From the NCBI GenBank assembly GCA_964385355.1, contig CAYLOO010000003.1, positions 2,879 through 66,878 of the forward strand: a stretch of DNA of 64,000 bases, in the 5' to 3' direction. The notes below the pieces were generated by a model that was not told the DNA's origin, did not search any database, and saw only the letters and a list, made by a program, of their open reading frames with translations. The translations under genes and the position numbers were made by a program. The stretch comes from an uncultured Anaerolineaceae bacterium (GTDB taxonomy: Bacteria; Chloroflexota; Anaerolineae; Anaerolineales; E44-bin32). Below, piece by piece: positions 1 through 64,000 of this stretch (positions are counted from its first letter, which is position 1; every line of letters starts with the position of its first letter).

Positions 1-228
1 CTCGCCAGTGATTTACCGGTTTTTCGTGAGATTCTGAATGAGGGGAACGCAGTTTTGCTCCCTCCCAATGATGTAGCGGCGTGGGATCAAGCGCTGAATC
101 AATTGATGGCGGATGATAGCCGCCGGCATTCGCTTGCGGAGAGAGCGGGTAAAGACGCCACTCAATACGACTGGCGTGACCGCGCCAGAAGGCTGCTGGA
201 TGGATTGGAAACAAACGATGCTGCATGA
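1..228 (+). CDS. Glycosyltransferase group 1 (GT4-like), C-terminal fragment; the 5' end lies outside the window
   Basis: Frame +1 is open from nt 1 to TGA 226-228. The translation LASDLPVFREILNEGNAVLLPPNDVAAWDQALNQLMADDSRRHSLAERA... resembles the C-terminal tail of GT4 enzymes. It is absent from the ORF track because it is truncated. Confidence 0.55.
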   Translation, partial: LASDLPVFREILNEGNAVLLPPNDVAAWDQALNQLMADDSRRHSLAERAGKDATQYDWRDRARRLLDGLETNDAA

Positions 229-1579
229 TCTTGGCGCGCGTTTTGGAGCATATTTACGGAAGCGGGAATTCCTATGGCCAGGCTCTCTTCTGCTGCTAGG
301 GATGCCGTTGCGCGCCTGGCTGTGGTTTAGTTATGGATCGATATCCTATGGCGATACAGGATCCTATATGCGTCTGGGGGAAGCCCTCAAAGATCTATCC
401 TTCAGCGGTTATGACGGCACACGTGTCCCCGGCTATCCGGCCTTTCTAGCGCTGCTCGATTTGCAGCCTGATCGTGTGTGGCTCGTGCAGATGCTGTTAG
501 GGTTAATGATATCCATGCTTCTCTACTGGATCACATGGCGGACGACGAACAGTATGGCGCTCGGTTTTGTCGTTGGCGCTCTCTACAATCTAATCCCCGG
601 GCAGTTCCTCTTTGAAGCCAACCTCCTGACGGAAACGCTTACAACGTTCTTTGTCGTTCTAAATCTTTGCCTGTTCGTTTGTTTCACGCGCGTTAGAAGT
701 CCTGCTCGGAGATATAGTATCGTAGTATTACTGGGCGTGGCAATCAGCGTGGTGGGCTTGATCCGTCCTTTGTTTTTCCCATTGACGATATGGTTCCTTC
801 CCTTCGTCTGGCTTGCAGCCAACGGGGATTGGAAAAAAAAGCTGCTGTTCGTGGCGTTGTATTCCCTCGGACCGATAGCCCTGCAGGGCAGCTGGTTGGT
901 CTACATGAAACAGCACTATCACGTACTATCGCCCACAGCAATGGCGGGTTACAGCCTCGTGCAGCATACGGGGGAGTACTTCGAGTTTCTTCCCGATGAG
1001 TACGCTTCTATTCGCGACACCTATATCCACTTCCGGGATGCGCAGATCACTGCGCGCGGGGTGCAGACCAATGCCATTTGGGAGGCGATCCCGGAGATCT
1101 CTAAGGCATCAGGTTTGGGTTTCTATGAGCTCGCGCGCGAGATGCAGCGGCTCTCCTGGTGGTTGATCCGGCATCATCCCGATCTCTATCTAAAGAACGT
1201 AATCGCCGGCTGGATCTCCTTCTGGAAAGCGCCCGTCTATTGGCGTCCAGAGGCGGTACAATCGGTATTCGCAGGGGGAGTCTTGAGTGGGATGGCGACT
1301 GTTGGAAGAGGAATCTCCCTGCTGGCGAATATCCTGTTCCTCGTTCTCAGCGCGTTGGTGGCCGCAAGCGCCAAGTGGCGCCGTAGATTGCAGTTCGATT
1401 TAATTTCATTGGCGGTGGGTGGGATGATCTGGATAATTTCCATCCTGCAAACGCTCCTCGATCATGGCGACAACCCGCGTTTTCTTGTGCCTTTGCAGGT
1501 ATTGGTTATTTACATGGTTGTCCGCAGTCTCTGGTTTTGGAGCAAGGGAAGAGTCGACCTGGAGGTCATTGACCATTGA
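200..1579 (+). CDS. Polytopic membrane protein, GT-C-fold (ArnT/PMT-like) glycosyltransferase candidate
   Basis: Track ORF 113..1579. Its first ~30 codons overlap the preceding CDS, so ATG 200 or ATG 218 is the likelier start. It has many long hydrophobic segments and the first-loop motif YGDTGSYMRLGEAL...RVPGYPAFLALL. Its stop overlaps the next start (TTGA). Confidence 0.5.
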   Translation: MDWKQTMLHDLGARFGAYLRKREFLWPGSLLLLGMPLRAWLWFSYGSISYGDTGSYMRLGEALKDLSFSGYDGTRVPGYPAFLALLDLQPDRVWLVQMLLGLMISMLLYWITWRTTNSMALGFVVGALYNLIPGQFLFEANLLTETLTTFFVVLNLCLFVCFTRVRSPARRYSIVVLLGVAISVVGLIRPLFFPLTIWFLPFVWLAANGDWKKKLLFVALYSLGPIALQGSWLVYMKQHYHVLSPTAMAGYSLVQHTGEYFEFLPDEYASIRDTYIHFRDAQITARGVQTNAIWEAIPEISKASGLGFYELAREMQRLSWWLIRHHPDLYLKNVIAGWISFWKAPVYWRPEAVQSVFAGGVLSGMATVGRGISLLANILFLVLSALVAASAKWRRRLQFDLISLAVGGMIWIISILQTLLDHGDNPRFLVPLQVLVIYMVVRSLWFWSKGRVDLEVIDH

Positions 1580-3156
1580 AGCGAATTGGGTTTGCCCTGG
1601 CGTGGATCCTCCCGACGCTGGCTGCTTGCACCATATTGGCCTGTTCTGATCTCGTTGGTTTCACCATCCAAGGCTGGTTGGCTTATTCACTATTAATGAG
1701 CATCTCCCTGCTCATTATTTATTTCGTTTGGAAGTTTTATAAAAATGAAGGGGCGGGCAAAGCCTTGCTTGTGGCTGCGTTAGTCGCCCTGGGTTTGCGA
1801 GTTCTCGTGGGGATCGTGCTCTATCGGGGTTTGCCAGTCTGGGGTTACGACGAGAAACCACAAAGGGCTGGTTATGTGTTCTGGGATTCTTACAAACGCG
1901 ATACCGATGCCTGGTCGCGGTCCGGAATGGACCAAGCTCTTACAACTGCGTTTACAAACCCGACGGGAAGCGACCAATACGGGGGATTGCTCTTCCTTAG
2001 TTCCAGCATCTATCGCTACCTCAGCCCGGACACCCAGCGTCCTTTATTAATCGTCGTAATGTCAGCCGCGGTTTCGGCGCTGGCGGTGCTTTTCGCTTGG
2101 GGATTTGCGGCTTCTGCTATTGGGGATAAAGCGGCGATGATTACTGCCTGGATAATTACGCTTTACCCTGAATCGGTGCTGCTGGGTTCATCGCAGATGC
2201 GTGAACCCTTTCTCATCGCCGCTCTGGCCGCTGCCTTGTATGGTTATTCGCGGATCCGCAAAGGGGAGTTGAAGGGTGGAATCACACTCGTCGTGGCATC
2301 TGCATTAATAATGGCCTTGCCGATATCACCACCATTTGTGATCGTGATCTTTGCGATTGTCGCTTCGGCCTGGTTTTGGGAAGGGCTTGGAATTGGGCGG
2401 CATAGAAAGTTGTTCGTTCTGGCTCTGCTCGGCGTGCTTATCCTGGCAGCTCTGGCCCTCGCCGTCCGTGCATGGGCGAGTTTAGATGCTATCGCCGGTT
2501 CCCCCTGGGAAGTTGTGCGAGAATGGTGGGTGAATGCAGGGGATCAATGGCGGATTACACTCGTCAGCGAGCAATCAGATATGCTCGATACCCTGCTTGA
2601 TCGTTTGCCAGGTAGTTTTCGGACTCCTTTCCTCGTCCTATATGGACTCATCCAACCCTTCTTGCCGGCTGCCTTGATTGCACCGGGCGCGCCTATCTGG
2701 CGCAGCATCGGTATTTGGCGTAGTCTGGGGTGGTTCTTGATGCTGCCGTTCCTGCTGTATGGGACTTGGCTGGCTTTCAGGAGAAAGGGATGGAGGAGTC
2801 TGGAGTTCTATCTCGCCGTTCTACTCTGGGTGACGGCGTTGGTTTCCTCCTACCGCGCCCCGGGGTACCAGTGGGATAACCCTCGCTATCGGGTACTATT
2901 CCTTGTGGCTCAGGCTGCTCTGATCGCATGGACTTGGGTTGAGGTCCGTCTAACTGAAAGCCCCTGGCTGAAACGCTGGTTCGTAATCCTTAGCGTTGAT
3001 TATCTGCTCGTTACACACTGGTACTTCGGCCGATATTACAATACGCCTACACTCAGCTTGGAAGGAATATTGGGGAGTATCCTCTTCTTCACAGCCATCT
3101 ATCTAGCAGGAACGCTCCTATCTGACGTTATTCGTACGAAAAGGCTACGGGGGTAG
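1576..3156 (+). CDS. Polytopic membrane protein, possible GT-C-like glycosyltransferase
   Basis: 526-aa ORF whose TTG start overlaps the upstream TGA. Hydrophobic helices run throughout, and the loop motif [25 protein letters not shown] is acidic/aromatic. The family was not recognised precisely. Confidence 0.4.
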
Positions 3157-3176
3157 AGAGAAGCCATCTTGAGGGG

Positions 3177-3233: not shown

Positions 3234-4319
3234 ATGACGAAAGCTTTAATCACCGGTATCACGGGACAGGACGGCTCATATCTGGCAGAGTTGTTGTTGT
3301 ACAAGGGATATGAAGTTCATGGCCTGATTCGGATAACGAGTACGTTTAACACTGAACGCATCGACCATATCTACCAGGACCCACATGACCCCACTGCGAA
3401 GCTGTTCCTGCACTACGGAAACCTGTCGAATGGCGAGCAACTAACGAATATGATCTATAACATTCAGCCGGACGAGATCTACCACATGGGGGCACAATCG
3501 CACGTCAAAGTAAGTTTTGATATGCCGGAGTATACGGGTAACGTAACCGGATTGGGGACGACGCGCATCTTGGAAGCTGTAAGGCGAAGCGGGATTATTA
3601 CACGCTTCTACCAGGCGTCCTCCAGCGAGATGTTCGGCAATGCGCCGCCCCCGCAAAGTGAGGAGACGGTTTTCGAACCGCGCAGCCCGTATGCGATCGC
3701 GAAAGTGTACGCTTATTGGATGACTGTTAACTACCGTGAAGCTTACGATATGTTTGCGGCGAATGGGATATTGTTTAACCACGAAAGCCCTAGGAGGGGA
3801 CCGACGTTCCTGTCGCGTAAAGTGACACGGGCTGTGGCGAGGATCAAGGCCGGACTGCAGCACAAAGTATATCTCGGGAATCTCGACTCGCGCCGTGATT
3901 ACGGATATACGCCGGAGTACGTCGAAGTCATGTGGCAAATCTTGCAGCAGGATCAACCCGACAACTTCGTCATCGGAACTGGGGTCGCCCCAACCATCCG
4001 TGAGTTTGTCGAAGAAGCCTTTACCTACGCTGACATGGATTGGCAGGAGTATGTGGAGATCGACCCGCGCTATTTTCGACCGACGGAGGTCGATTACCTT
4101 CATGCCGACCCTTCAAAAGCTCGCCGTCAATTAGGATGGGAACCTAAGATTACATATAAGAAATTAGTGCCCATCATGGTTGATGCAGACCTCGAGGCGG
4201 TCGGGCAGGAACCCATCGGAGAGGGCTTGAAGATACTGGATGAGCACTTCGGCGATTGGCATCGCTGGGATACGGGGGTTACGGCAGTGATTCAGAACGC
4301 CGGTAACGGCGTGGATTGA
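3234..4319 (+). CDS. gmd: GDP-mannose 4,6-dehydratase
   Basis: 361 aa. The N-terminus [33 protein letters not shown] and downstream motifs ([31 protein letters not shown]) are canonical Gmd. RBS GAGGGA lies upstream. Confidence 0.95.
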
Positions 4320-4498: not shown

Positions 4499-6376
4499 TT
4501 GAAGAGTATCGATCGTTTTGCTCACCGTCTTGTAAGTGTACGTTTCCTGCCAGAAGTTCTCGCTCTTCTGGGTGGAGTAGCTTACTTAATTCACGCCTGG
4601 GGGCATGTGCATGGTCAGGTTTCAGTTATTGACGAAGGGCTCTATCTTTTTAAAGGCTTCCAATTTGCTTTAGGTAATTACCAGCCTTTCCAGGATTACG
4701 GTCCACTAACAAATCACATGCCTTTATCGTTTCTCATTCCAGGGTGGGTGCAAGTCTTATTTGGTGCCGGACTTCGTACAGCACGTTATTACGCTTTGAG
4801 TCTGGGTATTTTAATAGTCGTGGGCTTATGGGTGGCATCACGACGATTTACGGGTCCCTGGATGGCTGCGGTTGGTATATGGGCGGTTGCCCTCAACCCT
4901 GCATTAGTCAAAATTTTCAGTCAAGCGACTTCCCAGGTGCTTGTAGCGGCGATGCTGATTTGGTCACTGGCGCTTACATTAGGTGATGGACGTAAGCCCT
5001 GGCAGCTATTCTTAGGCACACTTCTTGGTGGGTTGATAGCTCTGACACGCATTAATATGGTTCCCTTTCCGCTGCTTCTAATTGCATATATCTTTTGGCA
5101 GCATGGGAGAAAGTCGGGATATTGGAGTCTCATCACAGGTGTTGCGATCGTCCTTTTAGGTCATGCTGTATATTGGCCAGATATCCTGAAATTGTGGGCG
5201 AAGTGGATGCCAGCCTCGCTGACCCCTTTCTTAAATTCATTCCGAGAGACAGCCGGGGGGGAACCGGTGTGGGGTCCGGTTAACTTCCTCGGAAGTCGTT
5301 TTCGGATTTTATTTTCCAGCCTTCGTTTACATCTATTATCAGCCCTTGGCTTGATCAGCTTTTGGTTGGTTTTCCAATTCAATCCGAAGAACCGTGAGGG
5401 GAAAACAGACTTTAAAATTGGTTTGTTTTTGTCTGTACTTTACCTAACCTTGATGACAATGCACATATGGGCATCCCTGGGGTTGGAGTATTGCCCATTT
5501 TGTTTACACAATTATTTCGCATTCTTCCACCTTGCAGGTTTGCTGCTATTCATTCTAATGGGCAAATATGCTCTCAGAAGAACAGCGTCTTTTCGGGGAA
5601 TAGCGCTTATCTTAATTCTAATTTTCGTGCCTATTCTGTTTGGCATGTCGCTTGACTCGAGTCTTAGTGAATCGTTACTCGAAACTCAGGTTCCAAGATT
5701 GTCGAACCAGCGATTGGAGCCGGGGACGGTTTTACTTTTACATGCAATTGAAAGCAAGTACAGTATTACGAGCGATGAAATAATTTCTTGGACTAGTCTT
5801 CTGTTGAACGCAGTTATGATGGGCTTTGCTTCAGTGTTTCTCTATTATGCTGTTAGGGTAGTGTATTATCGAGAAAGGTTTGTCAACAGGAACTTCTTAG
5901 GGGTATTTGTGGGAGCGTTTATTGGGATAGAATTAGTGTTGGCAACGATTGTATTTGGCAACACGTATCGTTCTTATGATTGTGGAAAAGATATTATTAC
6001 GGCGCATGAGAAAGTGGGGGAGTACTTGGCTGAGAGAATACCAGCTGATTCACTAATCTATTGGGGGGTTGGCCGATCTCCAGTGCCCCTCCTGTATCTA
6101 TCGAATGCTATAACTTTCCCACCTCAATTAAACGGGGACTACACGCTAAGAGGTGGAGGTGACTCTGATGAATTATTACGATTTGGATACTGGAATGATC
6201 AATTGGCAAATAATTGGTTAGCGGATGCGGATTATATTATGGTTGAGAAGCGGAATTATAGTTCGACAGTTGCGGGATTCCTTGATCCTTTTCACTATGA
6301 TGAGTTTGAACCAACTCCTCCCACTGATCCATGCCGTGAAGATTCCTCGATCCTGGTTTTTAGGAGAATACCGTGA
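4499..6376 (+). CDS. Polytopic membrane protein, GT-C-fold glycosyltransferase candidate with hydrophilic C-terminal domain
   Basis: 625 aa with a TTG start. First-loop motif VSVIDEGLYLFKG...PLTNHMPLSFLIPG, more than 10 hydrophobic segments, and a soluble tail of about 130 aa. A hand-counted line (5881-5940) is 40% GC, lower than its neighbours. Confidence 0.5.
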   Translation: MKSIDRFAHRLVSVRFLPEVLALLGGVAYLIHAWGHVHGQVSVIDEGLYLFKGFQFALGNYQPFQDYGPLTNHMPLSFLIPGWVQVLFGAGLRTARYYALSLGILIVVGLWVASRRFTGPWMAAVGIWAVALNPALVKIFSQATSQVLVAAMLIWSLALTLGDGRKPWQLFLGTLLGGLIALTRINMVPFPLLLIAYIFWQHGRKSGYWSLITGVAIVLLGHAVYWPDILKLWAKWMPASLTPFLNSFRETAGGEPVWGPVNFLGSRFRILFSSLRLHLLSALGLISFWLVFQFNPKNREGKTDFKIGLFLSVLYLTLMTMHIWASLGLEYCPFCLHNYFAFFHLAGLLLFILMGKYALRRTASFRGIALILILIFVPILFGMSLDSSLSESLLETQVPRLSNQRLEPGTVLLLHAIESKYSITSDEIISWTSLLLNAVMMGFASVFLYYAVRVVYYRERFVNRNFLGVFVGAFIGIELVLATIVFGNTYRSYDCGKDIITAHEKVGEYLAERIPADSLIYWGVGRSPVPLLYLSNAITFPPQLNGDYTLRGGGDSDELLRFGYWNDQLANNWLADADYIMVEKRNYSSTVAGFLDPFHYDEFEPTPPTDPCREDSSILVFRRIP

Positions 6377-7326
6377 AGATCTCCGTTGTTGTTCCCGTAT
6401 ATAACGAGGCCGAAAGCCTGCATCCCCTCTTTCAGGCGATTAATGAGGCATTAGCTGGCTTCTCCTACGAAATCATATTCGTGGATGATGGCTCAAAAGA
6501 TGGGAGTGTCGACATCCTCTTCGAAATTGCTCAAGAAGCGAGGGATATTGTCAGCGTAATTCAATTCCGCAGGAATTTTGGACAGACAGCCGCGATCGCG
6601 GCAGGCCTCGATTATTCGGCTGGAGAGATTATTATTCTCTTGGATGCCGATCTTCAAAATGACCCCGCAGATATCCCCATGCTCGTTGAGAAGATCGATG
6701 AAGGCTATGATGTCGTTTCTGGGTGGCGGGTGGATCGGAAAGATACGCTGATAACCCGCACGATCCCCTCCAGGATGGCGAATTGGTTGATCTCGACAGT
6801 TACGGGTGTCAAATTGCACGATTACGGCTGCACATTGAAGGCGTACCGGAGGGATGTCTTTGAGGGATTCCGCCTTTATGGTGAGATGCACCGCTTCATT
6901 CCAGCGTATGCAGTATCTGTGGGGGCTCGCATCATAGAGGTTCCGGTTCAACACCACCCAAGGCGTTTTGGTAAGACAAAATACGGCTTGAGCCGTACGA
7001 TCAAAGTCCTGCTTGACTTATTCACGGTGAAGTTCCTCATCAGTTATGGGCATAAGCCGATCTACCTCTTTGGTGGCGCAGGCATCCTGCTCATCGTGCC
7101 AAGCGTTCTCATTTTATTCTTCCTCATCGTACGCAGACTGTGGCTTGGAATCTCCATTCTTGGGTCGCCGCTGCTTCAACTCAGTACGATGACTATGATC
7201 ATGGGCTTCCAATCGATCTTAATGGGACTGATAGCGGAGTTATTAGTCCGTATTTATCATGAGTCACAGGCCAAGCCAACGTATTCCATCCGCAAGGTCG
7301 TAGCTCCGTCGCGCTCTGAAGCATGA
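6373..7326 (+). CDS. GT2 polyprenyl-phosphate glycosyltransferase (Dpm1/ArnC/GtrB-like)
   Basis: Motifs KISVVVPVYNEAESL, IFVDDGSKDGS and LDADLQNDP, plus two C-terminal TM helices (IYLFGGAGILLIVPSVLILFFLIV, LSTMTMIMGFQSILMGLIAELLV). The GTG start overlaps the upstream stop (GTGA). Confidence 0.85.
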   Translation: MKISVVVPVYNEAESLHPLFQAINEALAGFSYEIIFVDDGSKDGSVDILFEIAQEARDIVSVIQFRRNFGQTAAIAAGLDYSAGEIIILLDADLQNDPADIPMLVEKIDEGYDVVSGWRVDRKDTLITRTIPSRMANWLISTVTGVKLHDYGCTLKAYRRDVFEGFRLYGEMHRFIPAYAVSVGARIIEVPVQHHPRRFGKTKYGLSRTIKVLLDLFTVKFLISYGHKPIYLFGGAGILLIVPSVLILFFLIVRRLWLGISILGSPLLQLSTMTMIMGFQSILMGLIAELLVRIYHESQAKPTYSIRKVVAPSRSEA

Positions 7327-13142: not shown

Positions 13143-14120
<978 letters not shown>

Positions 14121-18811: not shown

Positions 18812-18816
18812 AGATT

Positions 18817-20744: not shown

Positions 20745-20778
20745 TTCGTCCACACCGCAGAACTTAAGGATATCCGAA

Positions 20779-27642: not shown

Positions 27643-27691
27643 CTGTGGGGATGAACGTACCAGACAGGCCGCTCTTCTTGAGACACAATTC

Positions 27692-28645: not shown

Positions 28646-28646
28646 T

Positions 28647-33244: not shown

Positions 33245-33359
33245 GTTCTACATGCCGGAAGGGAAGTTATATCCGGATGAATCATTCTTAGTGATTGGAT
33301 CCGGAACCCTCTCGTTTGATTAGTGGTTGGTGGTCAGGGTTAAGTATCGAGGTTCGTTG

Positions 33360-35118: not shown

Positions 35119-35166
35119 GGCGGCGTGGAATATATTGGGCAAACCGTAATAAAAAGGCTGAATCTG

Positions 35167-51126: not shown

Positions 51127-51186
51127 AAATAGGCTCTTTATAGCATCTCTTTTGTTTTAGGGGTGCGTGGATCAAGGAGTTACACA

Positions 51187-59086: not shown

Positions 59087-60628
59087 ATGCATGACAATAA
59101 GCTATTGATACAGGCATGGACCTCGTCAGCATGGAATTCCTCGAGGACCTTGTTGTTCTTCGTTGTTGTAGCGATCTTCGCTGGTGGTCTTGGATTGAGA
59201 ATGTTAGATCTTACAGATCCACCTTTGGACTTTCACCCATCTCGTCAACTTTACGCATACACAAATGCTCGTGGACTCTATTATCAGATAACGCCGTCGG
59301 ATACCTCTCAAGTACGCGAAAGCGCCATTGAGGCGTGGAAATCAACCGATCACTATGAACCGCGTATCTTTGAGGGTTTGGTCGCCGGATTCTATTTTCT
59401 TGCGGGAGGGGAACACTTTTGGATTGCACGCATCATCGCATCAATCTTCTGGCTAATAGGGGGTTGGTTCCTATTTCTCCTAGCGAAGCGCGCAACGAAT
59501 TGGGATGGAGCGCTGTTGGCGGTTGCTTACTATCTATTCTTACCTTTTTCGATAATTGGGAGTCGGTCATTCCAACCTGACGTCCTGATGGTCATGTTGA
59601 TGATGATCACGGCTTTTTGTCTATATCGTTGGAGCGAGGAGCATACCTGGAAATGGGCCTTAACCTCAGGGATCTTCGGAGGTTTGACCATTTTATCAAA
59701 GGCACAAGGTGTATTCGCGGTAGCTGGAATGGCTTTTTTTGTGACGATGATGGGGAAGGGGCTCAAGCGGACATTAACGGACTGGCAGGTTTGGGTCATG
59801 GGTTTGCTCATGATAGGTATACCGGGCTTGTATTACCTAGGACCCTATCGCTCTGCCGCCGTAGGCTATTTCAACAACTTTACAATTGGGATGTCTGGGT
59901 TACTCAAGGATCCGGGTTTCTTCGTGCGATGGGCGAATTTCATCCATACCTTTATGGATTTTGCCGTCGTGGTTTTAAGCCTGATGGGCACGCTTCTTAT
60001 GCCGAAAAAGGGCAAGGCGATCGCATTAGGTTTATGGGTGGGATATGTCATGTTAGGCCTCTTTTTCCCATGGCAGATTCCGACGCATGATTATTACAGT
60101 CTCCCTTTAATTCCAACGGTGGCTTTCGGGTTGGCCCCCATCGGGGCGTTGCTATTTCATGCAATCAGGAAGCAAAATAGACTTTGGCGGTGGGCTTTTG
60201 TGATTGTATGTCTTGCTGCGATTGCTTATCCAGCTTGGCATGCACGATCAGGGCTATTAGGAAAGGATTACCGGAACGAACCTGCTGCTTGGAGAAACAT
60301 GGGCGACGAGCTTCCCCGTGATGGTGAGATCATTGCGTTGACGCATGATTATGGGATGCGTTTATTGTATTGGGGGTACACGCCAGTAAGGCTCTGGCCC
60401 TACCAAGCGGATTTCCAATTGCATCTTGCGCGTGGTGGTAATCTGTCACCAGAAGTACGGTCTTATTTCGATGATATGACAGGGGGGTCGAGGTACTTCC
60501 TTGTAACGGCGTACAACGAATTCGACGCTCAGCAACAAGTAAAAGAAATCCTCACAACTGAATATCCGCTCATACAACGGGGAGATGGATATATGCTCTT
60601 CGATCTCTCCCAATCGAAGATAGACTAA
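59087..60628 (+). CDS. Polytopic membrane protein, ArnT/GT39/GT83-like GT-C glycosyltransferase candidate
   Basis: 513 aa. Motifs PPLDFHPSRQLYAYTNARGLYY...YEPRIFEGLVAGFYFL and IIASIFWLIGGWFLFLLAKR, with a soluble C-terminal domain (IIALTHDYGMRLLYWGYTP). Confidence 0.55.
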   Translation: MHDNKLLIQAWTSSAWNSSRTLLFFVVVAIFAGGLGLRMLDLTDPPLDFHPSRQLYAYTNARGLYYQITPSDTSQVRESAIEAWKSTDHYEPRIFEGLVAGFYFLAGGEHFWIARIIASIFWLIGGWFLFLLAKRATNWDGALLAVAYYLFLPFSIIGSRSFQPDVLMVMLMMITAFCLYRWSEEHTWKWALTSGIFGGLTILSKAQGVFAVAGMAFFVTMMGKGLKRTLTDWQVWVMGLLMIGIPGLYYLGPYRSAAVGYFNNFTIGMSGLLKDPGFFVRWANFIHTFMDFAVVVLSLMGTLLMPKKGKAIALGLWVGYVMLGLFFPWQIPTHDYYSLPLIPTVAFGLAPIGALLFHAIRKQNRLWRWAFVIVCLAAIAYPAWHARSGLLGKDYRNEPAAWRNMGDELPRDGEIIALTHDYGMRLLYWGYTPVRLWPYQADFQLHLARGGNLSPEVRSYFDDMTGGSRYFLVTAYNEFDAQQQVKEILTTEYPLIQRGDGYMLFDLSQSKID

Positions 60629-60634: not shown

Positions 60635-61645
60635 ATGCCTACTCCTGAGCGTATCCAGTCCGATGGAACGAAAGAACACGATTTAAATGCCCAGTTACCG
60701 CTGGTTTCTATTGTCATGCCCTCCTTCAACCAGGCACGCTTCCTGGAGGATGCAATTCGCAGTGTGCTTGAGCAGGATTACCCGCGGATTGAACTCATCG
60801 TCATCGACGGGGGGTCAACGGACAGCAGCCAGGAGATCTTACAGCGATATCGGGATCGAATGGCACGTTGTATCTCAGAACCAGACCAGGGTCAGGCGGA
60901 GGCGATTAATAAAGGGTTTCGCCTTACCCGAGGGGATGTCGTTGCCTGGCTGAACTCCGATGATGTCTACCTGCCTGGGATTGTGACGCAGGCTGTAAAT
61001 GCACTAGAAGATAATCCAGATGCAGGGATGGTGTACGCCGATGGGTTGATGGTTGATGCTGATCTCGTATTGCTGGATCGTCATTATTACAAGTCGCTTA
61101 GTGCCGTGGACCTACTCTCTTTTGAGGTGCTGCTTCAACCAACCGTATTCATGCGCAGAGCTGCACTTGAAGAGGTGGGCTGGGTAAACGATGATTACCA
61201 TTTGATCTTGGACCATGAGCTTTGGGTTCGTATCGCCAGCCGCTATCCAATAGTTCACATAAAAAGCTTTTGGGCTCTTGAGCGAACGCATGCTGAGGCC
61301 AAGACCATTTCTCAGGCGAAAGGGTTTGTTGAAGAAGCTCAGCGGCTGGTTGCATGGGCCGGTCAAACAGAAGAACTCGGAGATTTAGTCCACAGAGAGC
61401 GCAGGCGGATCCAGGCGGGTTTGCATGTCTTTGCCGGACGGCGGCTGATCGATTCGGGCGAGTACAAACGTGCATTTCGGTATCTGATGCAAGCCGTGAC
61501 AGAACATCCGCCGACTGTGATGAGATACTGGTATAAAGTAGTCCAGGCTGGACTGAGCGCCGTAGGTCTTCCCGGTTTATTCGAATGGTATCGGACTACA
61601 CGTCGTAGGATAACCTATGGCACGGAGCACATAGAGCCGTTATGA
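60635..61645 (+). CDS. Glycosyltransferase family 2 (tandem paralogue 1)
   Basis: Motifs VSIVMPSFNQARFLEDAIRSVLEQDYPRIELIVIDGGSTDSS, AINKGF and WLNSDDVY. Confidence 0.85.
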   Translation: MPTPERIQSDGTKEHDLNAQLPLVSIVMPSFNQARFLEDAIRSVLEQDYPRIELIVIDGGSTDSSQEILQRYRDRMARCISEPDQGQAEAINKGFRLTRGDVVAWLNSDDVYLPGIVTQAVNALEDNPDAGMVYADGLMVDADLVLLDRHYYKSLSAVDLLSFEVLLQPTVFMRRAALEEVGWVNDDYHLILDHELWVRIASRYPIVHIKSFWALERTHAEAKTISQAKGFVEEAQRLVAWAGQTEELGDLVHRERRRIQAGLHVFAGRRLIDSGEYKRAFRYLMQAVTEHPPTVMRYWYKVVQAGLSAVGLPGLFEWYRTTRRRITYGTEHIEPL

Positions 61646-61738: not shown

Positions 61739-62581
61739 TTGAAAACCGACAAACCATTGGTTTCTATCGTAACTCCTTCCTTCAATCAAGGACTGTATCT
61801 TGAGGAAACTATTCAATCGGTCCTAAATCAGGATTATCCCAACATCGAGTACATCATCATTGATGGCGGCTCGACGGATGGAAGCGTGGAAATTATTAAG
61901 CGCTATGATGGTCGCATAGGTTACTGGGAGTCTGAACCCGATCTTGGTCAAACCGATGCGATTAACAAAGGTTTCGCCCTCGCCAATGGGAAAATATTGG
62001 CGTGGTTGAATTCCGATGACACCTATCGTCCCGGTGCGATACAGGAGGCGGTAGATTACCTTAATGACCACCCTGAATTGGGAATGGTTTATGGACATGC
62101 TTTCTATATTGATGAAGAGGGTTCAAGCATTGCCCAATTCCCCACGAACAAAACGGATTATTATAAATTGCGGCGGGGAAACTCAACGATCCCACAGCAA
62201 GCCGCGTTCTTCCGATCTTCCCTCTGGAAGATGGTTGGGCCGTTGGACCCTTCGTTCTACTATGCCATGGACTATGACCTTTGGATTCGAATATCTAGCG
62301 TCTCTCCGATTGGCTACAATCCACGACTCTGGGCAAACTTCCGACTGCAGGACTCATCTAAATCGATGCAGGAGGCGCATCGTTGCTGGCCAGAGATCAT
62401 CCGCATCCATTTCCGGGATGGTGGCAGCGTGTTCTCAATCCTGTATATGAAGTATCTTCTGCGCCGAGCACTCGAACCGATCATGCCATTGCGGATGGCG
62501 TTCTGGAAATGGAAGTTTGCATTAGAGAAAAGAGGAAAGCAGACTTCCTGGCAGGTGAAGGATCCTTCAAAGCGATCCTAA
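61739..62581 (+). CDS. Glycosyltransferase family 2 (tandem paralogue 2)
   Basis: VSIVTPSFNQGLYLEETIQSVLNQDYPNIEYIIIDGGSTDGS, AINKGF and WLNSDDTY are colinear with 60635..61645. TTG start after GAGG. Confidence 0.85.
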   Translation: MKTDKPLVSIVTPSFNQGLYLEETIQSVLNQDYPNIEYIIIDGGSTDGSVEIIKRYDGRIGYWESEPDLGQTDAINKGFALANGKILAWLNSDDTYRPGAIQEAVDYLNDHPELGMVYGHAFYIDEEGSSIAQFPTNKTDYYKLRRGNSTIPQQAAFFRSSLWKMVGPLDPSFYYAMDYDLWIRISSVSPIGYNPRLWANFRLQDSSKSMQEAHRCWPEIIRIHFRDGGSVFSILYMKYLLRRALEPIMPLRMAFWKWKFALEKRGKQTSWQVKDPSKRS

Positions 62582-62699: not shown

Positions 62700-63476
62700 T
62701 TGCTAAAAAGAGACATTGATGCAGTGGCAATGCTCCACAGGGCAATATCCTCATGGTATGTATTATTGCTAGCCGGCTTGGTGGGTGCAATTATCGGATG
62801 GCTGATTTCATTCGCAAGACCACCTTTGTATCAGGCGTCAGTGCTTATTGAGTACGCGGTCGACTATTCACGCACAGCTCATTTGGATGACATTACTGTC
62901 CATCAAGCCTACGAGCAAGTCCGAAGGGTGTTGCTGGCTGATGCGACACTCCAGACTACGCTGGATGCCGCTCAAGAGAGGGTCGGCGAGAAATTAACCT
63001 TCACAGATATTGCAGACTTTCGTTCACAGATACAACTTTCGCGTTACCCGGGAGGTTTCGAACTCATCGTGTACGACCAAGACCCTGAGCAGTCCGCTGC
63101 TGCCGTGAATGCATGGGCCGAGGTTGCGTTGGATGAGACGGAGAAGGCGATCAGCCATGCAATCCGGGCAGCAGAACTTCAATCAGAGATCTATAAGGCT
63201 GGATGCAAATTATCCTCAGACCCTGAAAACCCGGATCGGGTAGTCTGGCTTTGCGCCTCGGGTTATCCAGATCTCGACTCTGATGAACTGGCCGATGATT
63301 TGCTCCGTGAAATTCAACACACTAGAGGCATCCTTCCGATCTTCACATTCTCACTGCTTCAGGAAGCTCAGGTTCCAATGGATCCGGTTGCCTGGAGTCG
63401 AGGCAGCATTGTCCTGGCTTGTGCGCTGGTCGGTCTTTTGCTTGGGTTCATCGGGGCAATTATTTATAAAGAGTGA
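62700..63476 (+). CDS. Polysaccharide co-polymerase / chain-length determinant (Wzz-like)
   Basis: The N-terminal TM (YVLLLAGLVGAIIGWLISF) is followed by PPLYQASVLIEY. A helical, hydrophilic middle of about 170 aa and a C-terminal TM (IVLACALVGLLLGFIGAIIY) complete the PCP topology. Starts at TTG 62700 or ATG 62730. Confidence 0.5.
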   Translation: MLKRDIDAVAMLHRAISSWYVLLLAGLVGAIIGWLISFARPPLYQASVLIEYAVDYSRTAHLDDITVHQAYEQVRRVLLADATLQTTLDAAQERVGEKLTFTDIADFRSQIQLSRYPGGFELIVYDQDPEQSAAAVNAWAEVALDETEKAISHAIRAAELQSEIYKAGCKLSSDPENPDRVVWLCASGYPDLDSDELADDLLREIQHTRGILPIFTFSLLQEAQVPMDPVAWSRGSIVLACALVGLLLGFIGAIIYKE

Positions 63477-63686
63477 AGAGTAGGGTAATTTCCATCCAGA
63501 CTTTTCCTTCTCAATCCAGTTTTTGTGAGGATTATCCATCATTGGACTACCTTTCAGAAGGGACTAACCAGGGGCTTTCACGAGGATTGATCCAGGTTTA
63601 TCGCATGTTGGGTTGCGGCTTGCGTTAAGGATCGGGCCTGGATAGCAGCAGCGCATCCAAACGCATTCAAAGCAGGGTAGATTGAT

Positions 63687-64000
63687 TTGAAATCTTCTCT
63701 TTCTCGATGGAGTGAATTAGGCCAGGAAATTTCCTGGTATCTCTGGCTACTTCTGTTGGTCACGATTCCAGTGACGAGTTCTCCGCTTATAGCGCGCTTC
63801 TCCGGAGGGGAAACACCCGTCAGCCCGCTTTCTATTTACCCCCTAATAGGGATTATGCTCCTCTGGTTTTTCCCTTACCTATTGCGAGGGGGTAAATTAC
63901 CAGCGATCTCATGGCCTTTGCTTGTCTTCTTCCTTTTTGCGCTTCTCTCTGCAGCAATTGCAGTTATGCTTCCTATTTTGCCCTTTAAAGGGCAGACGTT
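63687..64000 (+). CDS. Membrane protein, 5' fragment (possibly O-antigen ligase/polymerase-like); continues beyond the window
   Basis: The frame is open from TAG 63678-63680 to the window end, with the first start candidate at TTG 63687. The translation is LKSSLSRWSELGQEISWYLWLLLLVTIPVTSSPLIARFSGGETPVSPLSIYPLIGIMLLWFF.... The family guess is weak. Confidence 0.3.
   Translation, partial: MKSSLSRWSELGQEISWYLWLLLLVTIPVTSSPLIARFSGGETPVSPLSIYPLIGIMLLWFFPYLLRGGKLPAISWPLLVFFLFALLSAAIAVMLPILPFKGQT

What the first reader, a model, noticed from the sequence alone, without database searches (positions are those of the whole stretch)
1..64000. One ~64-kb co-directional super-locus mixing ABC-exporter, Wzz/ligase-like and polyprenyl-P-sugar/GT-C glycan assembly
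Seen in the sequence: 54 of the 55 protein-coding genes called are on the + strand. Most are separated by fewer than 60 nt or overlap by 1-8 nt, and only about ten gaps exceed 140 nt. Content recognised by motif: GDP-Fuc synthesis, a PseB-type dehydratase, two NeuB-family synthases and three CMP-type cytidylyltransferases. The locus also holds at least seven GT2/GT4 enzymes, twelve GT-C-like membrane proteins, two Dpm1/ArnC-like GT2s and Wzm/Wzt. Completing it are a Wzz-like protein, a ligase/polymerase-like membrane protein, a sulfotransferase, five methyltransferases and a deacetylase. Inference: one very complex, acidic, methylated and possibly sulfated envelope glycan or glycoconjugate family. 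Its core would be exported by Wzm/Wzt and then elaborated outside the membrane by GT-Cs using lipid-linked monosaccharides. That logic is best known from mycobacterial arabinogalactan/LAM and ArnC/ArnT-type modification, not from standard O-antigen or capsule loci. I recognise no priming phosphoglycosyltransferase (WecA/WbaP/PglC type) and no sugar aminotransferase in the window.
Basis: partly seen in the sequence, partly recalled or inferred. Interest (0 to 1): 0.8.

Follow-up and report, generated by a model that had tools for sequence, protein, structure and literature searches.

The report
Giant envelope-glycan gene cluster, Anaerolineales
This is a real, evolutionarily conserved gene cluster of more than 70 kb from an uncultured Anaerolineales (Chloroflexota) bacterium; it most likely builds a complex acidic surface glycan inside the cell, exports it through an ABC transporter and decorates it outside the membrane, which makes it a candidate source of the still unidentified outer envelope layers of this phylum.

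Summary
There are 52 complete ORFs plus two cut genes; 51 of the 52 complete ORFs are on the + strand, about 94% of the window is coding, and nine gaps exceed 140 nt.

Of the 12 polytopic membrane proteins, none looks like a transporter. Support for a GT-C fold is strong for eight, moderate for two (g4, g29) and weak for two (g1, g2). The strong cases include two families with no Pfam or NCBIfam model (g7, g8), whose confident AlphaFold models match only GT-C enzymes.

The missing priming enzyme, a WecA/MraY-type transferase, lies 2.2 kb beyond the window end. It follows a Wzy_C ligase-like gene.

The source is an Anaerolineales MAG. Gene order is conserved in relatives down to 44-54% protein identity, but as separate blocks. 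Variable, low-GC accessory genes are interspersed.

ABC export followed by extracytoplasmic GT-C decoration fits the data. However, this logic is already known from Gram-positive rhamnose-rich wall polysaccharides, S-layer glycans and O-antigen three-component systems. "One glycan" remains untested.

Verdict: a new variant of a known kind, of moderate interest.

The parts
1..111 (+). 3' end of a GT4-type glycosyltransferase gene (cut by the window start)
   Evidence: Translation. Relatives carry a GT4 and a Wzx-like Polysacc_synt gene at this position.
113..1579 (+). g1: polytopic membrane protein, weakly supported GT-C
   Evidence: No Pfam or NCBIfam hit. The family profile against the AftB-like family gives hhalign prob 44%, E 2.4e-4; a local re-run with other alignment settings gave below 20%. 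Syntenic in relatives.
1576..3156 (+). g2: polytopic membrane protein, weakly supported GT-C
   Evidence: No family or PDB hit. A deep MSA against the g49 PMT_2 family gives hhalign prob 40%, E 3e-4.
3234..4319 (+). g3: GDP-mannose 4,6-dehydratase
   Evidence: Pfam GDP_Man_Dehyd, 438 bits.
4499..6376 (+). g4: accessory GT-C (low GC)
   Evidence: PMT_2 22 bits, below the cut-off. hhalign against the AftB-like family gives prob 83%. Present in 11 of 71 relatives. GC 0.447.
6373..7326 (+). g5: polyprenyl-phosphate sugar synthase (ArnC/GtrB/Dpm1 type GT2 with C-terminal TM helices)
   Evidence: ArnC 9hwj E 4e-63 over the full length; GtrB 5ekp 9e-40; DPMS 5mlz 7e-22. NCBIfam ArnC 240 bits, below the cut-off.
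7323..8303 (+). g6: flippase-like membrane protein (MprF flippase-domain family)
   Evidence: Pfam LPG_synthase_TM 114 bits. TIGR00374 flippase-like, 62.5 bits, above the cut-off.
8310..10298 (+). g7: GT-C fold glycosyltransferase, family without a Pfam or NCBIfam model
   Evidence: AF2 pLDDT 91, pTM 0.90. Foldseek matches: AftA 8if8 E 5.5e-4, STT3, ArnT, PimE.
10363..12402 (+). g8: GT-C fold glycosyltransferase, family without a Pfam or NCBIfam model
   Evidence: AF2 pLDDT 91.5, pTM 0.93. The top 13 Foldseek hits are all GT-C: DPY19, AglB, ALG12, STT3, ArnT, PglB. D130 invariant and D131 conserved in at least 90% of sequences.
12546..13076 (+). g9: MarR/HTH_24 regulator
   Evidence: Pfam. Conserved directly after g8 in class A relatives.
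13155..14120 (+). g10: GDP-L-fucose synthase-like epimerase/reductase
   Evidence: NCBIfam Fcl 299 bits, below the 500-bit cut-off.
14136..14996 (+). g11: Wzm ABC-2 permease
   Evidence: Pfam ABC2_membrane. NCBIfam galactan Wzm and KpsM.
15000..16265 (+). g12: Wzt ATPase with a C-terminal Wzt_C domain
   Evidence: ABC_tran 75.6 bits; Wzt_C 30.8 bits against a cut-off of 30.4.
16196..17872 (+). g13: KpsC/KpsS-like (Capsule_synth) GT-B, candidate ulosonic-acid transferase / chain terminator
   Evidence: Capsule_synth, weak. The family profile hits KpsC 6mgd at E 0.004. Always follows Wzt in class A relatives.
17879..18811 (+). g14: SAM methyltransferase
   Evidence: Pfam. Conserved after g13.
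18808..19821 (+). g15: PseB, UDP-GlcNAc 4,6-dehydratase (inverting)
   Evidence: TIGR03589 492 bits against a cut-off of 408.
19824..20744 (+). g16: RmlD-like 4-reductase
   Evidence: RmlD_sub_bind 194 bits.
20677..21594 (+). g17: accessory methyltransferase (low GC)
   Evidence: Pfam. Replaced by a sulfotransferase in L002 and L091.
21599..22669 (+). g18: NeuB-family nonulosonic acid synthase with a SAF domain
   Evidence: Pfam NeuB + SAF. Below both the NeuB and the PseI cut-offs.
22669..23772 (+). g19: GT4 glycosyltransferase
   Evidence: Pfam.
23794..24555 (+). g20: AAC(3)-like N-acetyltransferase
   Evidence: Antibiotic_NAT 148 bits.
24562..25896 (+). g21: DUF4910/DUF2172/M28-like protein
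   Evidence: Pfam. Absent together with g20 in L092.
25924..26694 (+). g22: CMP-sugar cytidylyltransferase
   Evidence: CTP_transf_3 120 bits.
26731..27642 (+). g23: methyltransferase (paralogue of g14, 56% identity)
27542..28645 (+). g24: soluble protein of unknown family
   Evidence: No hits. Conserved in L089.
28605..29687 (+). g25: GT2
29810..30778 (+). g26: GT2 (paralogue of g25)
30816..32273 (+). g27: GT-B-like, weak match to the BFO_1060 (NulO transferase) family and to TagF
   Evidence: BFO_1060 is a homologue of the T. forsythia Pse/Leg transferases (PMC5420450).
32270..33244 (+). g28: GFO/IDH/MocA sugar oxidoreductase
33327..34811 (+). g29: GT-C (low-GC island)
   Evidence: PMT_2 20.8 bits, below the cut-off. 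hhalign against g30/g33 gives prob 60%.
35113..36723 (+). g30: GT-C, PMT-like
   Evidence: Pfam PMT 32.5 bits against a cut-off of 22.7. LA_3751/2 family.
36808..37821 (+). g31: second polyprenyl-P sugar synthase-type GT2 with C-terminal TM helices
   Evidence: Paralogue of g5. AglJ, ArnC and PpgS hits.
38018..38899 (-). g32: methyltransferase, the only minus-strand gene
39102..40733 (+). g33: GT-C (paralogue of g30)
   Evidence: BLASTP E 2e-34 against g30.
41021..41845 (+). g34: SDR
41823..42899 (+). g35: PAPS-type sulfotransferase (accessory)
   Evidence: Sulfotransfer_3 103 bits. Absent in L087 and L088.
42961..44211 (+). g36: CMP-sugar cytidylyltransferase fused to a KdsC/KDN-9-P-phosphatase-like HAD domain
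44204..45079 (+). g37: NeuB-family synthase without a SAF domain
45094..46722 (+). g38: Capsule_synth / BFO_1060-like GT-B, candidate NulO transferase
   Evidence: Capsule_synth 41 bits. BFO_1060 E 7e-12.
46815..47615 (+). g39: methyltransferase
47630..48268 (+). g40: PIG-L family de-N-acetylase
48347..49351 (+). g41: GT2
49425..50129 (+). g42: third CMP-sugar cytidylyltransferase
50134..51126 (+). g43: D-2-hydroxyacid dehydrogenase
51163..51936 (+). g44: SDR (accessory)
   Evidence: Absent in L006.
52180..54147 (+). g45: GT-C, PMT_2 (accessory)
   Evidence: PMT_2 27.2 bits against a cut-off of 26.1. Absent in L006.
54650..55477 (+). g46: MptE-like (DUF115) protein, candidate Kdo/NulO-type transferase
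   Evidence: MptE-like 47.8 bits. Weak WaaZ and PseD hits.
55478..57079 (+). g47: GT-C related to the N-terminal membrane domain of mycobacterial AftB
   Evidence: NF041481 E 4e-24, positions 9-284 of the model. More than 4000 homologues, named GT39 or arabinofuranosyltransferase by their sources.
57131..58705 (+). g48: GT-C (paralogue of g47)
   Evidence: BLASTP E 4e-74. AftB model E 7e-7.
59087..60628 (+). g49: GT-C, PMT_2
   Evidence: 65.6 bits.
60635..61645 (+). g50: GT2
61739..62581 (+). g51: GT2 (paralogue of g50)
62700..63476 (+). g52: small bitopic Wzz/PCP-like protein
   Evidence: Wzz 18.8 bits, below the cut-off; TM helices at both ends. Conserved before Wzy_C in L006 and L007.
63687..64000 (+). 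g53: 5' part of a Wzy_C (O-antigen ligase / polymerase / O-OTase family) gene. In L001 it continues and is followed by the WecA-like priming transferase, a third Dpm1-like GT2, a second sulfotransferase and a second flippase-like gene.
   Evidence: L001 equals the window from position 63036 (965 of 965 bases identical). Wzy_C 59.9 bits; Glycos_transf_4 111 bits. WecA is the best NCBIfam hit.

Best explanation
The window is most of a modular cell-envelope glycan biosynthesis locus of more than 70 kb from an uncultured Anaerolineales bacterium. Chloroflexota are regarded as lacking LPS and a canonical outer membrane.

Proposed mechanism (inferred unless marked as shown):
1. A WecA-type transferase (g54, just outside the window) primes a polyprenyl phosphate.
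2. Cytoplasmic GT2, GT4 and GT-B enzymes elongate the chain. They use GDP-fucose-type, UDP-6-deoxy-HexNAc-type and up to three CMP-activated ulosonic-acid donors.
3. Methyl- and sulfotransferases modify the chain. A KpsC-like transferase (g13) plus a methyltransferase (g14), encoded directly after Wzt, provide a chain-end cap.
4. The CBM-bearing Wzt/Wzm transporter exports the chain.
5. Outside the membrane the polymer is decorated by many GT-C enzymes. Their donors are polyprenyl-P-monosaccharides made by three ArnC/Dpm1-type GT2s (g5, g31, g55) and translocated by MprF-type flippase-like proteins (g6, g57).
6. A Wzy_C protein (g53), together with a Wzz-like partner (g52), transfers or polymerises the product onto its final acceptor, which may be a protein, a second chain or the wall.

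Shown here: the gene families, the GT-C folds of g7 and g8, the ArnC homology of g5, and conserved synteny. Inferred: the donors, the order of steps, the acceptor, and whether a single product is made.
For: Gene families.

GT-C identity: Pfam or NCBIfam for g30, g45, g47, g49. Paralogy for g33 and g48. Confident AF2 models of g8 and g7 match only GT-C enzymes at high probability. Profile links exist for g4, g29, g1 and g2.

g5 matches ArnC, GtrB and DPMS over its full length. g6 passes the flippase-like TIGR00374 cut-off. Wzt carries a Wzt_C domain.

The order Wzt, g13 (KpsC-like), methyltransferase, PseB, reductase, NeuB is kept in relatives at 44-90% identity. The priming WecA-like gene, Wzy_C and Wzz-like gene are conserved together with g46-g51.

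Of 57 species-level Anaerolineae genomes with enough downstream flank, 26 keep Wzm and Wzt downstream of the g5-g8 module. One 28.9-kb contig of a close relative runs uninterrupted from Wzm to a g31-like gene.

The same overall scheme is established for Rha-CWPS (PMC9574508).
Against: Nothing biochemical is available.
- g1 and g2 are only weakly linked to GT-C.
- The Wzt_C and Wzz hits are marginal.
- The g5-g8 core occurs without Wzm/Wzt within 10 kb in many genomes (class B), so the two need not act on the same polymer.
- Three separate CMP-sugar sets, three lipid-sugar synthases, and both ABC-type and (in relatives) Wzx-type flippases could mean more than one product.
- Co-location of the left and right halves was seen only in this window.
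- In relative L087 the DNA upstream of g34 is unrelated and partly on the other strand.
- No LCP ligase, and no acceptor protein that could be identified as such, is in the window.
Confidence: 0.55

Rival explanations
1. Glyco-island holding several pathways. The window is a cluster of two or more partly independent pathways that happen to be kept together:
(i) an ancient module of Wzx-like flippase, GT4, GMD, ArnC-like GT2, flippase-like protein and two GT-Cs;
(ii) a Wzm/Wzt polymer with a nonulosonic-acid cap;
(iii) a WecA/Wzy_C/Wzz unit with its own GT-Cs;
(iv) swappable accessory decorators.
These would make different glycoconjugates rather than one.
For: Class B loci carry module (i) without Wzm/Wzt within 10 kb. 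Only 26 of 57 genomes link them. There are three cytidylyltransferase sets and three lipid-sugar synthases. Low-GC accessory genes come and go between relatives. The junction upstream of g34 differs in L087.
Against: Co-orientation is tight, with overlapping stop and start codons across module borders. The order from g1 through g19 is conserved across 44-90% identity. The extended locus holds a single priming transferase. Dual-chain pathways that end in one product are known (PMC9574508).
Confidence: 0.3
2. General protein O-glycosylation system. The exported lipid-linked glycan is transferred by the Wzy_C protein (a WsaB/PglL-type O-oligosaccharyltransferase). PMT-like GT-Cs mannosylate S-layer, sheath or other surface proteins, as in Gram-positive S-layer glycan (slg) clusters and actinobacterial Pmt/Ppm systems.
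For: Wzy_C is the domain of the O-OTases WsaB, WsfB, PilO and PglL, and slg clusters combine Wzm/Wzt, a methyl cap and such an OTase (PMC2943079). Chloroflexota lack the LPS pathway, so a lipid A-core acceptor is unlikely (PMC13319060). g30 passes the PMT model and sits next to a Dpm1-like GT2. NulO transferase-like genes recall the T. forsythia protein O-glycan (PMC5420450).
Against: No gene identifiable as an S-layer or acceptor protein, and no TPR partner, was found in the window or in L001. Wzy_C does not discriminate ligase, polymerase and OTase. This rival concerns the acceptor and is compatible with the main explanation.
Confidence: 0.12
3. Ordinary LPS O-antigen locus of a diderm bacterium, with WaaL ligation to lipid A-core and periplasmic Gtr-like modification.
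For: Wzm/Wzt, a WecA-like gene, Wzy_C and Wzz-like genes are the usual O-antigen parts.
Against: All relatives are Anaerolineales/Chloroflexota. The phylum lacks LPS and BAM genes according to the literature quoted in PMC13319060. Twelve GT-Cs in one locus is far beyond any O-antigen cluster I know of (my own knowledge).
Confidence: 0.03

Closest known systems
Rhamnose-rich cell-wall polysaccharide (Rha-CWPS) loci of streptococci, lactococci and enterococci (gac, rgp, cwps, epa)
   Same: A WecA/TagO-type primer; a backbone made in the cytoplasm and exported by an ABC transporter; extracytoplasmic decoration by GT-C enzymes using C55-P-sugars made by membrane GT-A enzymes; an optional second chain with a Wzx flippase, a polymerase and a Wzz-like co-polymerase. 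All are encoded in one large, variable locus (PMC9574508, PMC8035078).
   Different: No rml or rhamnosyltransferase set, and no LCP ligase, was seen. There are 12 GT-Cs instead of 1-3. The candidate flippase is MprF-type flippase-like rather than GtrA- or Wzx-type. The locus adds GDP-fucose-type, nonulosonic-acid, sulfate and methyl chemistry. The phylum is different (Chloroflexota).
Three-component extracytoplasmic glycosylation systems (Gtr, ArnC/ArnT, Csd, GT136 pentofuranose systems)
   Same: A polyprenyl-P-sugar synthase, a flippase and a GT-C, encoded side by side. g5-g6-g7-g8 is such a unit. g5 is a full-length ArnC homologue (PMC11127046).
   Different: There are two GT-Cs per module. 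Both belong to families without a Pfam or NCBIfam model. The module is linked to GMD and a reductase in both locus classes. The flippase family differs.
Mycobacterial arabinogalactan / LAM assembly (Aft and Emb GT-Cs, Wzm/Wzt galactan exporter, Ppm1, PpgS)
   Same: Many GT-Cs act after ABC export. g47 and g48 match the AftB membrane domain. g7 is structurally closest to AftA. g11 and g12 match the galactan exporter models best or second best.
   Different: Scores are far below the equivalog cut-offs (85 against 1050 bits). No decaprenyl-P-arabinose synthesis genes are in the window. No mycolate context exists.
S-layer glycoprotein glycan (slg) clusters of Geobacillus and Paenibacillus
   Same: Monoderm context, Wzm/Wzt export, methyl capping, and a Wzy_C-type transferase in place of WaaL (PMC2943079).
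   Different: slg clusters are 15-25 kb, have a WbaP-type primer and lack arrays of GT-Cs.
ABC-transporter O-antigen pathways with terminal capping (E. coli O8/O9a WbdD; Klebsiella/Raoultella WbbB beta-Kdo cap)
   Same: Wzt with a C-terminal carbohydrate-binding domain. A methyltransferase and a KpsC-like (ulosonic-acid transferase-like) gene lie next to it. The Kdo-cap paradigm is from my own knowledge.
   Different: The cap chemistry is unknown. The g13 match to KpsC is weak (E 0.004).

Membership tests
ABC-transporter-dependent (Wzm/Wzt) glycan pathway | ABC-2 permease plus a dedicated ATPase | tested here: met
   g11 ABC2_membrane 70 bits; g12 ABC_tran 75.6 bits. Best NCBIfam hits are teichoic-acid and galactan exporters.
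ABC-transporter-dependent (Wzm/Wzt) glycan pathway | Wzt C-terminal carbohydrate-binding domain coupled to a chain-end cap | tested here: inconclusive
   Wzt_C 30.8 bits against a cut-off of 30.4; clearer in relatives. Candidate capping genes g13 and g14 are adjacent. Cap chemistry was not tested.
ABC-transporter-dependent (Wzm/Wzt) glycan pathway | Polyprenyl-P HexNAc-1-P transferase (WecA type) as primer | tested here: met
   Not in the window. L001:2227-3306 has Glycos_transf_4 at 111 bits, with WecA as the best NCBIfam hit (112 bits, below the cut-off).
Three-component extracytoplasmic glycosylation system | Membrane-anchored GT2 that makes polyprenyl-P-monosaccharide | tested here: met
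   g5 against ArnC structures: E 4e-63 over residues 2-316; also GtrB and DPMS. g31 and g55 are of the same type. Activity was not assayed.
Three-component extracytoplasmic glycosylation system | Dedicated flippase (GtrA, Wzx or MATE type) | tested here: not met
   No GtrA, Wzx or MatE hit in the window. Instead g6 is LPG_synthase_TM / TIGR00374 flippase-like. A Wzx-like gene lies just upstream in relatives.
Three-component extracytoplasmic glycosylation system | GT-C fold transferase | tested here: met
GT-C superfamily (for g7 and g8) | GT-C membrane fold | tested here: met
   Models with pLDDT 91. All high-probability Foldseek hits are GT-C, with TM-scores of 0.25-0.47; transporters score below prob 0.25.
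GT-C superfamily (for g7 and g8) | Conserved acidic residue(s) in the first extracytoplasmic loop | tested here: inconclusive
   g8 has invariant D130 and D131 conserved in at least 90% of sequences. g7 has invariant E183 in the motif WSExSR. Their position relative to catalytic sites of solved GT-Cs was not mapped.
GT-C superfamily (for g7 and g8) | Use of a lipid-phosphate-linked donor | not testable with these tools
   Needs biochemistry.
GT-C superfamily (for g1 and g2) | Detectable homology or fold match to a GT-C | tested here: inconclusive
   g1 against the AftB-like family: prob 44%, E 2.4e-4; below 20% in a local re-run. g2 against the PMT_2-type g49 family: prob 40%, E 3e-4. No PDB profile hits.
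Mycobacterial AftB (terminal beta-1,2-arabinofuranosyltransferase) | Score above the equivalog cut-off over the whole protein | tested here: not met
   g47 scores 84.8 bits against a cut-off of 1050; only model positions 9-284 of 633 are matched.
Mycobacterial AftB (terminal beta-1,2-arabinofuranosyltransferase) | Decaprenyl-P-arabinose donor pathway nearby (UbiA-type PRTase, DprE1/E2) | tested here: not met
   No such family hit any protein of the window or of L001.
Canonical pseudaminic acid pathway (PseBCHGIF) | PseB | tested here: met
   g15 scores 492 bits against a cut-off of 408.
Canonical pseudaminic acid pathway (PseBCHGIF) | PseC aminotransferase, PseH, PseG | tested here: not met
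   No aminotransferase, GNAT or PseG-type hit. Instead there are an RmlD-like reductase (g16) and an AAC(3)-like acetyltransferase (g20).
Canonical pseudaminic acid pathway (PseBCHGIF) | PseI and PseF at equivalog level | tested here: not met
   g18 scores 239 bits against 340 (PseI) and 253 against 400 (NeuB). g22 scores 31 bits against 206 for PseF.
Wzx/Wzy-dependent pathway | Wzx flippase, Wzy polymerase, Wzz co-polymerase | tested here: inconclusive
   There is no Wzx in the window, but one lies upstream in relatives. g53 carries Wzy_C, which does not separate polymerase from ligase. g52 scores 18.8 bits on Wzz, below the cut-off.
Rha-CWPS locus | rmlABCD, rhamnosyltransferases and an LCP ligase | tested here: not met
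   Only an RmlD-like reductase was found; there is no LCP hit. The locus resembles Rha-CWPS in logic, not in membership.

The most novel reading that the evidence does not exclude
The deeply conserved core is GMD plus a reductase, an ArnC-like synthase, an MprF-type flippase-like protein, and two GT-C families (g7, g8) that have no Pfam or NCBIfam model. This could be a new kind of multi-component glycosylation system that uses a lipid-phosphate-linked 6-deoxyhexose (fucose-type) donor. On this reading the whole locus of more than 70 kb assembles one sulfated, methylated, nonulosonic-acid-capped heteropolymer. That polymer would form the so far unidentified outer layer(s) of the Anaerolineae / Chloroflexota envelope.
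Probability: 0.15. Interest if true: 0.8.

Novelty: new variant of a known kind. Interest (0 to 1): 0.55.

Why it matters
Chloroflexota stain Gram-negative but lack LPS and BAM. The composition of their multilayered envelopes is unknown and has been guessed to be polysaccharide or protein (PMC13319060, PMC7332563).

This locus, and its conserved core found in 79 species-level Anaerolineae genomes, is a concrete genetic candidate for such a layer.

It also yields two widespread GT-C families without a Pfam or NCBIfam model. The g8 family gave 371 hits. The fused g7+g38 query gave 1401 hits, and the 120 listed were all g7-type.

The locus shows an unusually dense use of lipid-linked-donor glycosyltransferases: 12 in 64 kb. 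It also suggests a non-canonical nonulosonic-acid route (PseB plus a reductase, with no aminotransferase).

Relatives occur in the genera Anaerolinea, Pelolinea and Leptolinea (seen here as MAGs). Those genera have cultured members (my own knowledge), so the hypotheses are testable in principle.

Tried and rejected
- Exact look-ups of the source contig failed or were blocked. The source is an 80,560-bp NCBI/JGI contig that could not be fetched. Only L001 extends the right end.
- Sequence-profile searches of the g1, g2 and g7 families against PDB found nothing.
- hhalign of these families against the g8 family found nothing. The positive control, g8 family against the AftB-like family, also failed. 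These negatives are therefore uninformative.
- A fused g7+g38 query, meant to recover right-block homologues on the same long contigs as left-block ones, listed only g7 homologues. Left/right co-location in distant relatives therefore stayed untested. Contig-length matching between the hit lists found no shared contig.
- Rfam found no RNA family and there are no tRNAs.
- Promoter and terminator consensus scans of 33-42 kb were not above shuffled controls, so operon borders could not be set.
- No tandem repeats were found, and there are no meaningful long direct or inverted repeats or IS-like ends flanking the low-GC island.
- The transporter reading of the polytopic proteins was rejected. Transporters appear only at probability below 0.25 and TM-score about 0.1 in the fold searches.

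Full report
OBSERVATION. The window holds 52 complete long ORFs. A gene is cut at each end: a GT4 C-terminus at 1-111, and a membrane protein from about 63.69 kb. 51 of the 52 complete ORFs are on the + strand; the exception is a methyltransferase at 38018-38899. Coding density is about 94%. Nine intergenic gaps exceed 140 nt. Many neighbours overlap by 1-8 nt; the larger apparent overlaps come from taking the first possible start codon. There are no tRNAs, no Rfam families and no tandem repeats.

SOURCE AND EXTENSION. Exact look-ups of the contig failed. A 48-mer from the right end, however, hit JGI metagenome contig Ga0307421_1005258 (L001). It is identical over the 965-base overlap and adds 5.5 kb. 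Exact-sequence look-ups show that the window proteins come from one 80,560-bp contig held by NCBI and JGI. Homologues of g8 and g7 that carry a source name are all from Anaerolineales MAGs. A scan of one genome per species returned 79 loci, all from Anaerolineales, Anaerolineae or Chloroflexota MAGs. The closest is the uncultured Anaerolineales MAG_101, with 89% identity for g8.

GENE CONTENT. Pfam and NCBIfam give the following:
- GMD (g3) and an Fcl-like enzyme (g10, below the equivalog cut-off).
- A true PseB (g15, 492 bits against 408) followed by an RmlD-like reductase (g16).
- Two NeuB-family synthases (g18 with a SAF domain, g37 without), both below the NeuB and PseI cut-offs.
- Three CTP_transf_3 cytidylyltransferases (g22, g36, g42). 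g36 is fused to a KdsC/KDN-9-P-phosphatase-like HAD domain.
- Seven GT2, plus one complete GT4 (g19) and a second GT4 cut at the left end.
- Wzm (g11) and Wzt (g12) with a marginal Wzt_C domain.
- Five methyltransferases, a sulfotransferase (g35) and a PIG-L deacetylase (g40).
- An AAC(3)-like N-acetyltransferase with a DUF4910/M28-like partner (g20, g21).
- A GFO/IDH/MocA oxidoreductase, two SDRs, a 2-hydroxyacid dehydrogenase and a MarR-type regulator (g9).
- An MptE-like protein (g46).
- Three GT-B-like proteins (g13, g27, g38) with weak to moderate matches to Capsule_synth (KpsC/KpsS) and to the BFO_1060 family.

BFO_1060 is a homologue of the Tannerella forsythia pseudaminic/legionaminic-acid transferases (PMC5420450). 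A profile of the g13/g38 family hits KpsC at E 0.004. No aminotransferase and no phosphoglycosyltransferase family hit any window protein.

THE PRIMING ENZYME. L001 shows that the cut gene at the right end is a 511-aa Wzy_C protein (59.9 bits). It is followed by, in order:
- a 359-aa Glycos_transf_4 protein (111 bits; WecA is the best NCBIfam model);
- a third GT2 with C-terminal TM helices (AglJ/PpgS-like);
- a second sulfotransferase;
- the start of a second protein that looks flippase-like by eye (no family search was run on it).

The order Wzz-like, Wzy_C, WecA-like, GT2 is kept in relatives with 53-54% identical g47 orthologues.

ARE THE MEMBRANE PROTEINS GT-C? Twelve proteins have about 6-13 predicted TM helices.
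- g30 (PMT), g45 and g49 (PMT_2) pass the Pfam cut-offs.
- g47 matches the N-terminal 280 positions of the mycobacterial AftB model (E 4e-24). It has more than 4000 homologues, named GT39 or arabinofuranosyltransferase by their sources.
- g48 and g33 are clear paralogues of g47 and g30.
- g4 and g29 have sub-threshold PMT_2 hits. They link by hhalign to the AftB-like family (83%) and to g30/g33 (60%).
- g7 and g8 had no Pfam, NCBIfam or PDB sequence hit.

With alignments of 49 and 52 homologues, AlphaFold gave confident models for g8 and g7: pLDDT 91.5 and 91.0, pTM 0.93 and 0.90.
- For g8, the 13 best PDB matches are all GT-C enzymes: DPY19, AglB, ALG12, STT3, ArnT and PglB.
- For g7, every hit with probability of 0.4 or more is a GT-C: AftA, STT3, ArnT, AftD, PimE and PglB. 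Transporters score below 0.25, with TM-scores of about 0.1.

TM-scores to the GT-Cs are modest (about 0.25-0.47), as expected for a very divergent superfamily. g1 and g2 remain weak. g1 against the AftB-like family gave 44%, E 2.4e-4, but fell below 20% in a local re-run with different alignment settings. g2 against the g49 family gave 40%, E 3e-4, using 104 representatives. Nothing points to transporters. The first refutation criterion of the finding is therefore not met.

LIPID-LINKED DONOR MACHINERY. g5 aligns end to end with the solved ArnC structures (E 4e-63). It also matches GtrB and archaeal DPMS. g31 is its paralogue, and g55 is of the same type. g6 passes the flippase-like TIGR00374 model and Pfam LPG_synthase_TM, the flippase domain family of MprF. 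g5-g6-g7-g8 is thus a synthase, flippase-like protein and two-GT-C unit.

COMPARATIVE GENOMICS. I ran tblastn of all window proteins against 85 related loci.

Class A order is: (Wzx-like, GT4), g1, g2, GMD, (g4), g5, g6, g7, g8, MarR, Fcl, Wzm, Wzt, g13, methyltransferase, PseB, reductase, NeuB, GT4. It is kept in relatives at 44-90% identity of g8. Wzm and Wzt lie downstream of g8 in 26 of 57 genomes with at least 5 kb of flank. PseB is present in 23 of 46 with at least 9.5 kb.

Class B loci (for example L038) carry UDP-sugar dehydrogenase, epimerase, Wzx-like, GT4, GMD, g8, g5, g6, g7, GT4 and AsnB. They have no ABC exporter within 10 kb. The most tightly conserved unit is therefore GMD plus the g5-g8 module, next to a Wzx-like flippase and a GT4.

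The right block keeps its order in L006 and L007, where g47 orthologues are 53-54% identical. That block runs Capsule_synth, methyltransferase, PIG-L, GT2, cytidylyltransferase, 2-hydroxyacid DH, MptE-like, g47, g48, PMT_2, GT2, GT2, Wzz-like, Wzy_C, WecA-like, GT2. It is also kept from g34 onward in L087 and L088, at 81-95% protein identity.

A single 28.9-kb JGI contig of a close relative runs from Wzm through g27 and g29 to a g31-like gene.

Co-orientation holds for 615 of 624 hits.

VARIABLE PARTS. Genes with GC at least one SD below the mean are g4, g17, g29, g30, g32, g33, g47 and g48.
- g4 occurs in only 11 of 71 relatives.
- g17 is replaced by a sulfotransferase in L002 and L091.
- g20 and g21 are missing in L092.
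- g35 is missing in L087 and L088.
- g44 and g45 are missing in L006.
- The 33.3-40.7 kb island (three GT-Cs, a Dpm1-like GT2 and the only minus-strand gene) is rearranged in L089, with extra g30-like genes and fragments of g28.
- In L087 the 8 kb upstream of g34 are unrelated genes, three of them on the other strand.

The locus therefore behaves like other surface-glycan loci: a conserved scaffold with swappable decorators. I could not test whether the left and right halves are neighbours in distant relatives (see Tried and rejected).

MECHANISM (inference). The steps would be:
1. WecA-like priming on a polyprenyl phosphate.
2. Cytoplasmic elongation and modification. Donors would be GDP-fucose-type, PseB-derived 6-deoxy-HexNAc-type, and up to three CMP-ulosonic acids. 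The chain would also be O-methylated and sulfated.
3. Capping by g13 and g14. These are always encoded directly after the CBM-bearing Wzt, which echoes the methyl-cap paradigm of ABC-dependent glycans (PMC2943079) and the Kdo-cap paradigm (my own knowledge).
4. Wzm/Wzt export.
5. Extracytoplasmic decoration by GT-Cs using lipid-P-sugars.
6. Final transfer or polymerisation by the Wzy_C protein with its Wzz-like partner.

Chloroflexota are considered to lack LPS (PMC13319060). The acceptor is therefore more likely a protein, a second chain or the wall than lipid A-core.

The pathway PseB plus reductase plus NeuB, without an aminotransferase, is not the canonical pseudaminic route. It may give a 7-hydroxy-type nonulosonic acid; this is my inference and is untested.

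COMPARISON AND NOVELTY. The logic is the one established for Gram-positive Rha-CWPS (PMC9574508, PMC8035078). Pieces of it occur in O-antigen three-component systems (PMC11127046), S-layer glycan clusters (PMC2943079) and mycobacterial arabinan/LAM assembly. Membership in any of these families fails on defining features: no rml or LCP genes, no DPA pathway, no PseC/H/G, and no GtrA- or Wzx-type flippase inside the module.

What is new:
- the phylum;
- the scale (12 GT-Cs, three lipid-sugar synthases, three CMP-sugar sets and two sulfotransferases in about 70 kb);
- two widespread GT-C families without a Pfam or NCBIfam model;
- the MprF-type flippase-like partner;
- the conserved linkage of the module to GMD.

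I rate it a new variant of a known kind, of moderate interest. It is a testable genetic candidate for the unidentified envelope layers of Chloroflexota.

Noticed in passing
window 33327-40733: Low-GC island (gene GC 0.42-0.47 against a mean of 0.50). It holds three GT-Cs, a Dpm1-like GT2 and the only minus-strand gene, and is flanked by the largest gaps. In close relative L089 the same site carries other g30-like GT-Cs and fragments or copies of the GFO/IDH/MocA gene g28, which suggests a recombination hot spot.
   Followed up: partly
window 54148-54649: The largest gap (502 nt). A 74-codon ORF at 54395-54619 resembles the N-terminus of the upstream GT-C g45 (BLASTP E 0.003). It may be a remnant of a duplicated or replaced GT-C gene.
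   Followed up: partly
window 42961-45079: g36 fuses a CMP-sugar cytidylyltransferase to a KdsC/KDN-9-P-phosphatase-like HAD domain and overlaps a SAF-less NeuB (g37). This arrangement suggests a 9-phosphate (Kdn/Neu-9-P-type) route distinct from the g15-g22 set.
   Followed up: no
window 18808-26694: PseB sits with an RmlD-like reductase, a NeuB-family synthase, an AAC(3)-like N-acetyltransferase, a DUF4910/M28-like protein and a cytidylyltransferase. There is no aminotransferase, PseH or PseG, so this is a non-canonical nonulosonic-acid gene set. g20 and g21 are absent from relative L092.
   Followed up: partly
window 20677-21594; L002:20402-21262; L091:7460-8317: The methyltransferase g17 (low GC) is replaced at the same position by a Sulfotransfer_1 gene in several relatives. 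This is a methyl-for-sulfate swap at one locus position.
   Followed up: partly
L038 1-22067 (and L036-L041, L045, L047, L051, L053, L055, L060, L063, L066, L081): Compact class B loci: UDP-sugar dehydrogenase, epimerase, Wzx-like, GT4, GMD, g8-like, g5-like, g6-like, g7-like, GT4, asparagine synthase. The GT-C/ArnC-like core lies next to GMD with no ABC exporter within 10 kb.
   Followed up: partly
L087 1-7900: In a relative whose right-block proteins are 81-95% identical, the DNA upstream of g34 encodes unrelated proteins with no Pfam hit (575, 446, 523 and 464 aa), three of them on the opposite strand. The middle/right junction is therefore not conserved.
   Followed up: no
window 52132-52215: An inverted repeat with 28-nt arms (79% complementary) and a 28-nt spacer spans the start codon of GT-C gene g45. 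Its significance is unknown.
   Followed up: no
window 49425-51936: The third cytidylyltransferase (g42) is followed by a D-2-hydroxyacid (glycerate/phosphoglycerate-type) dehydrogenase and an SDR. These might supply an acyl (for example glyceroyl or lactyl) substituent or another acidic sugar. This is untested.
   Followed up: no
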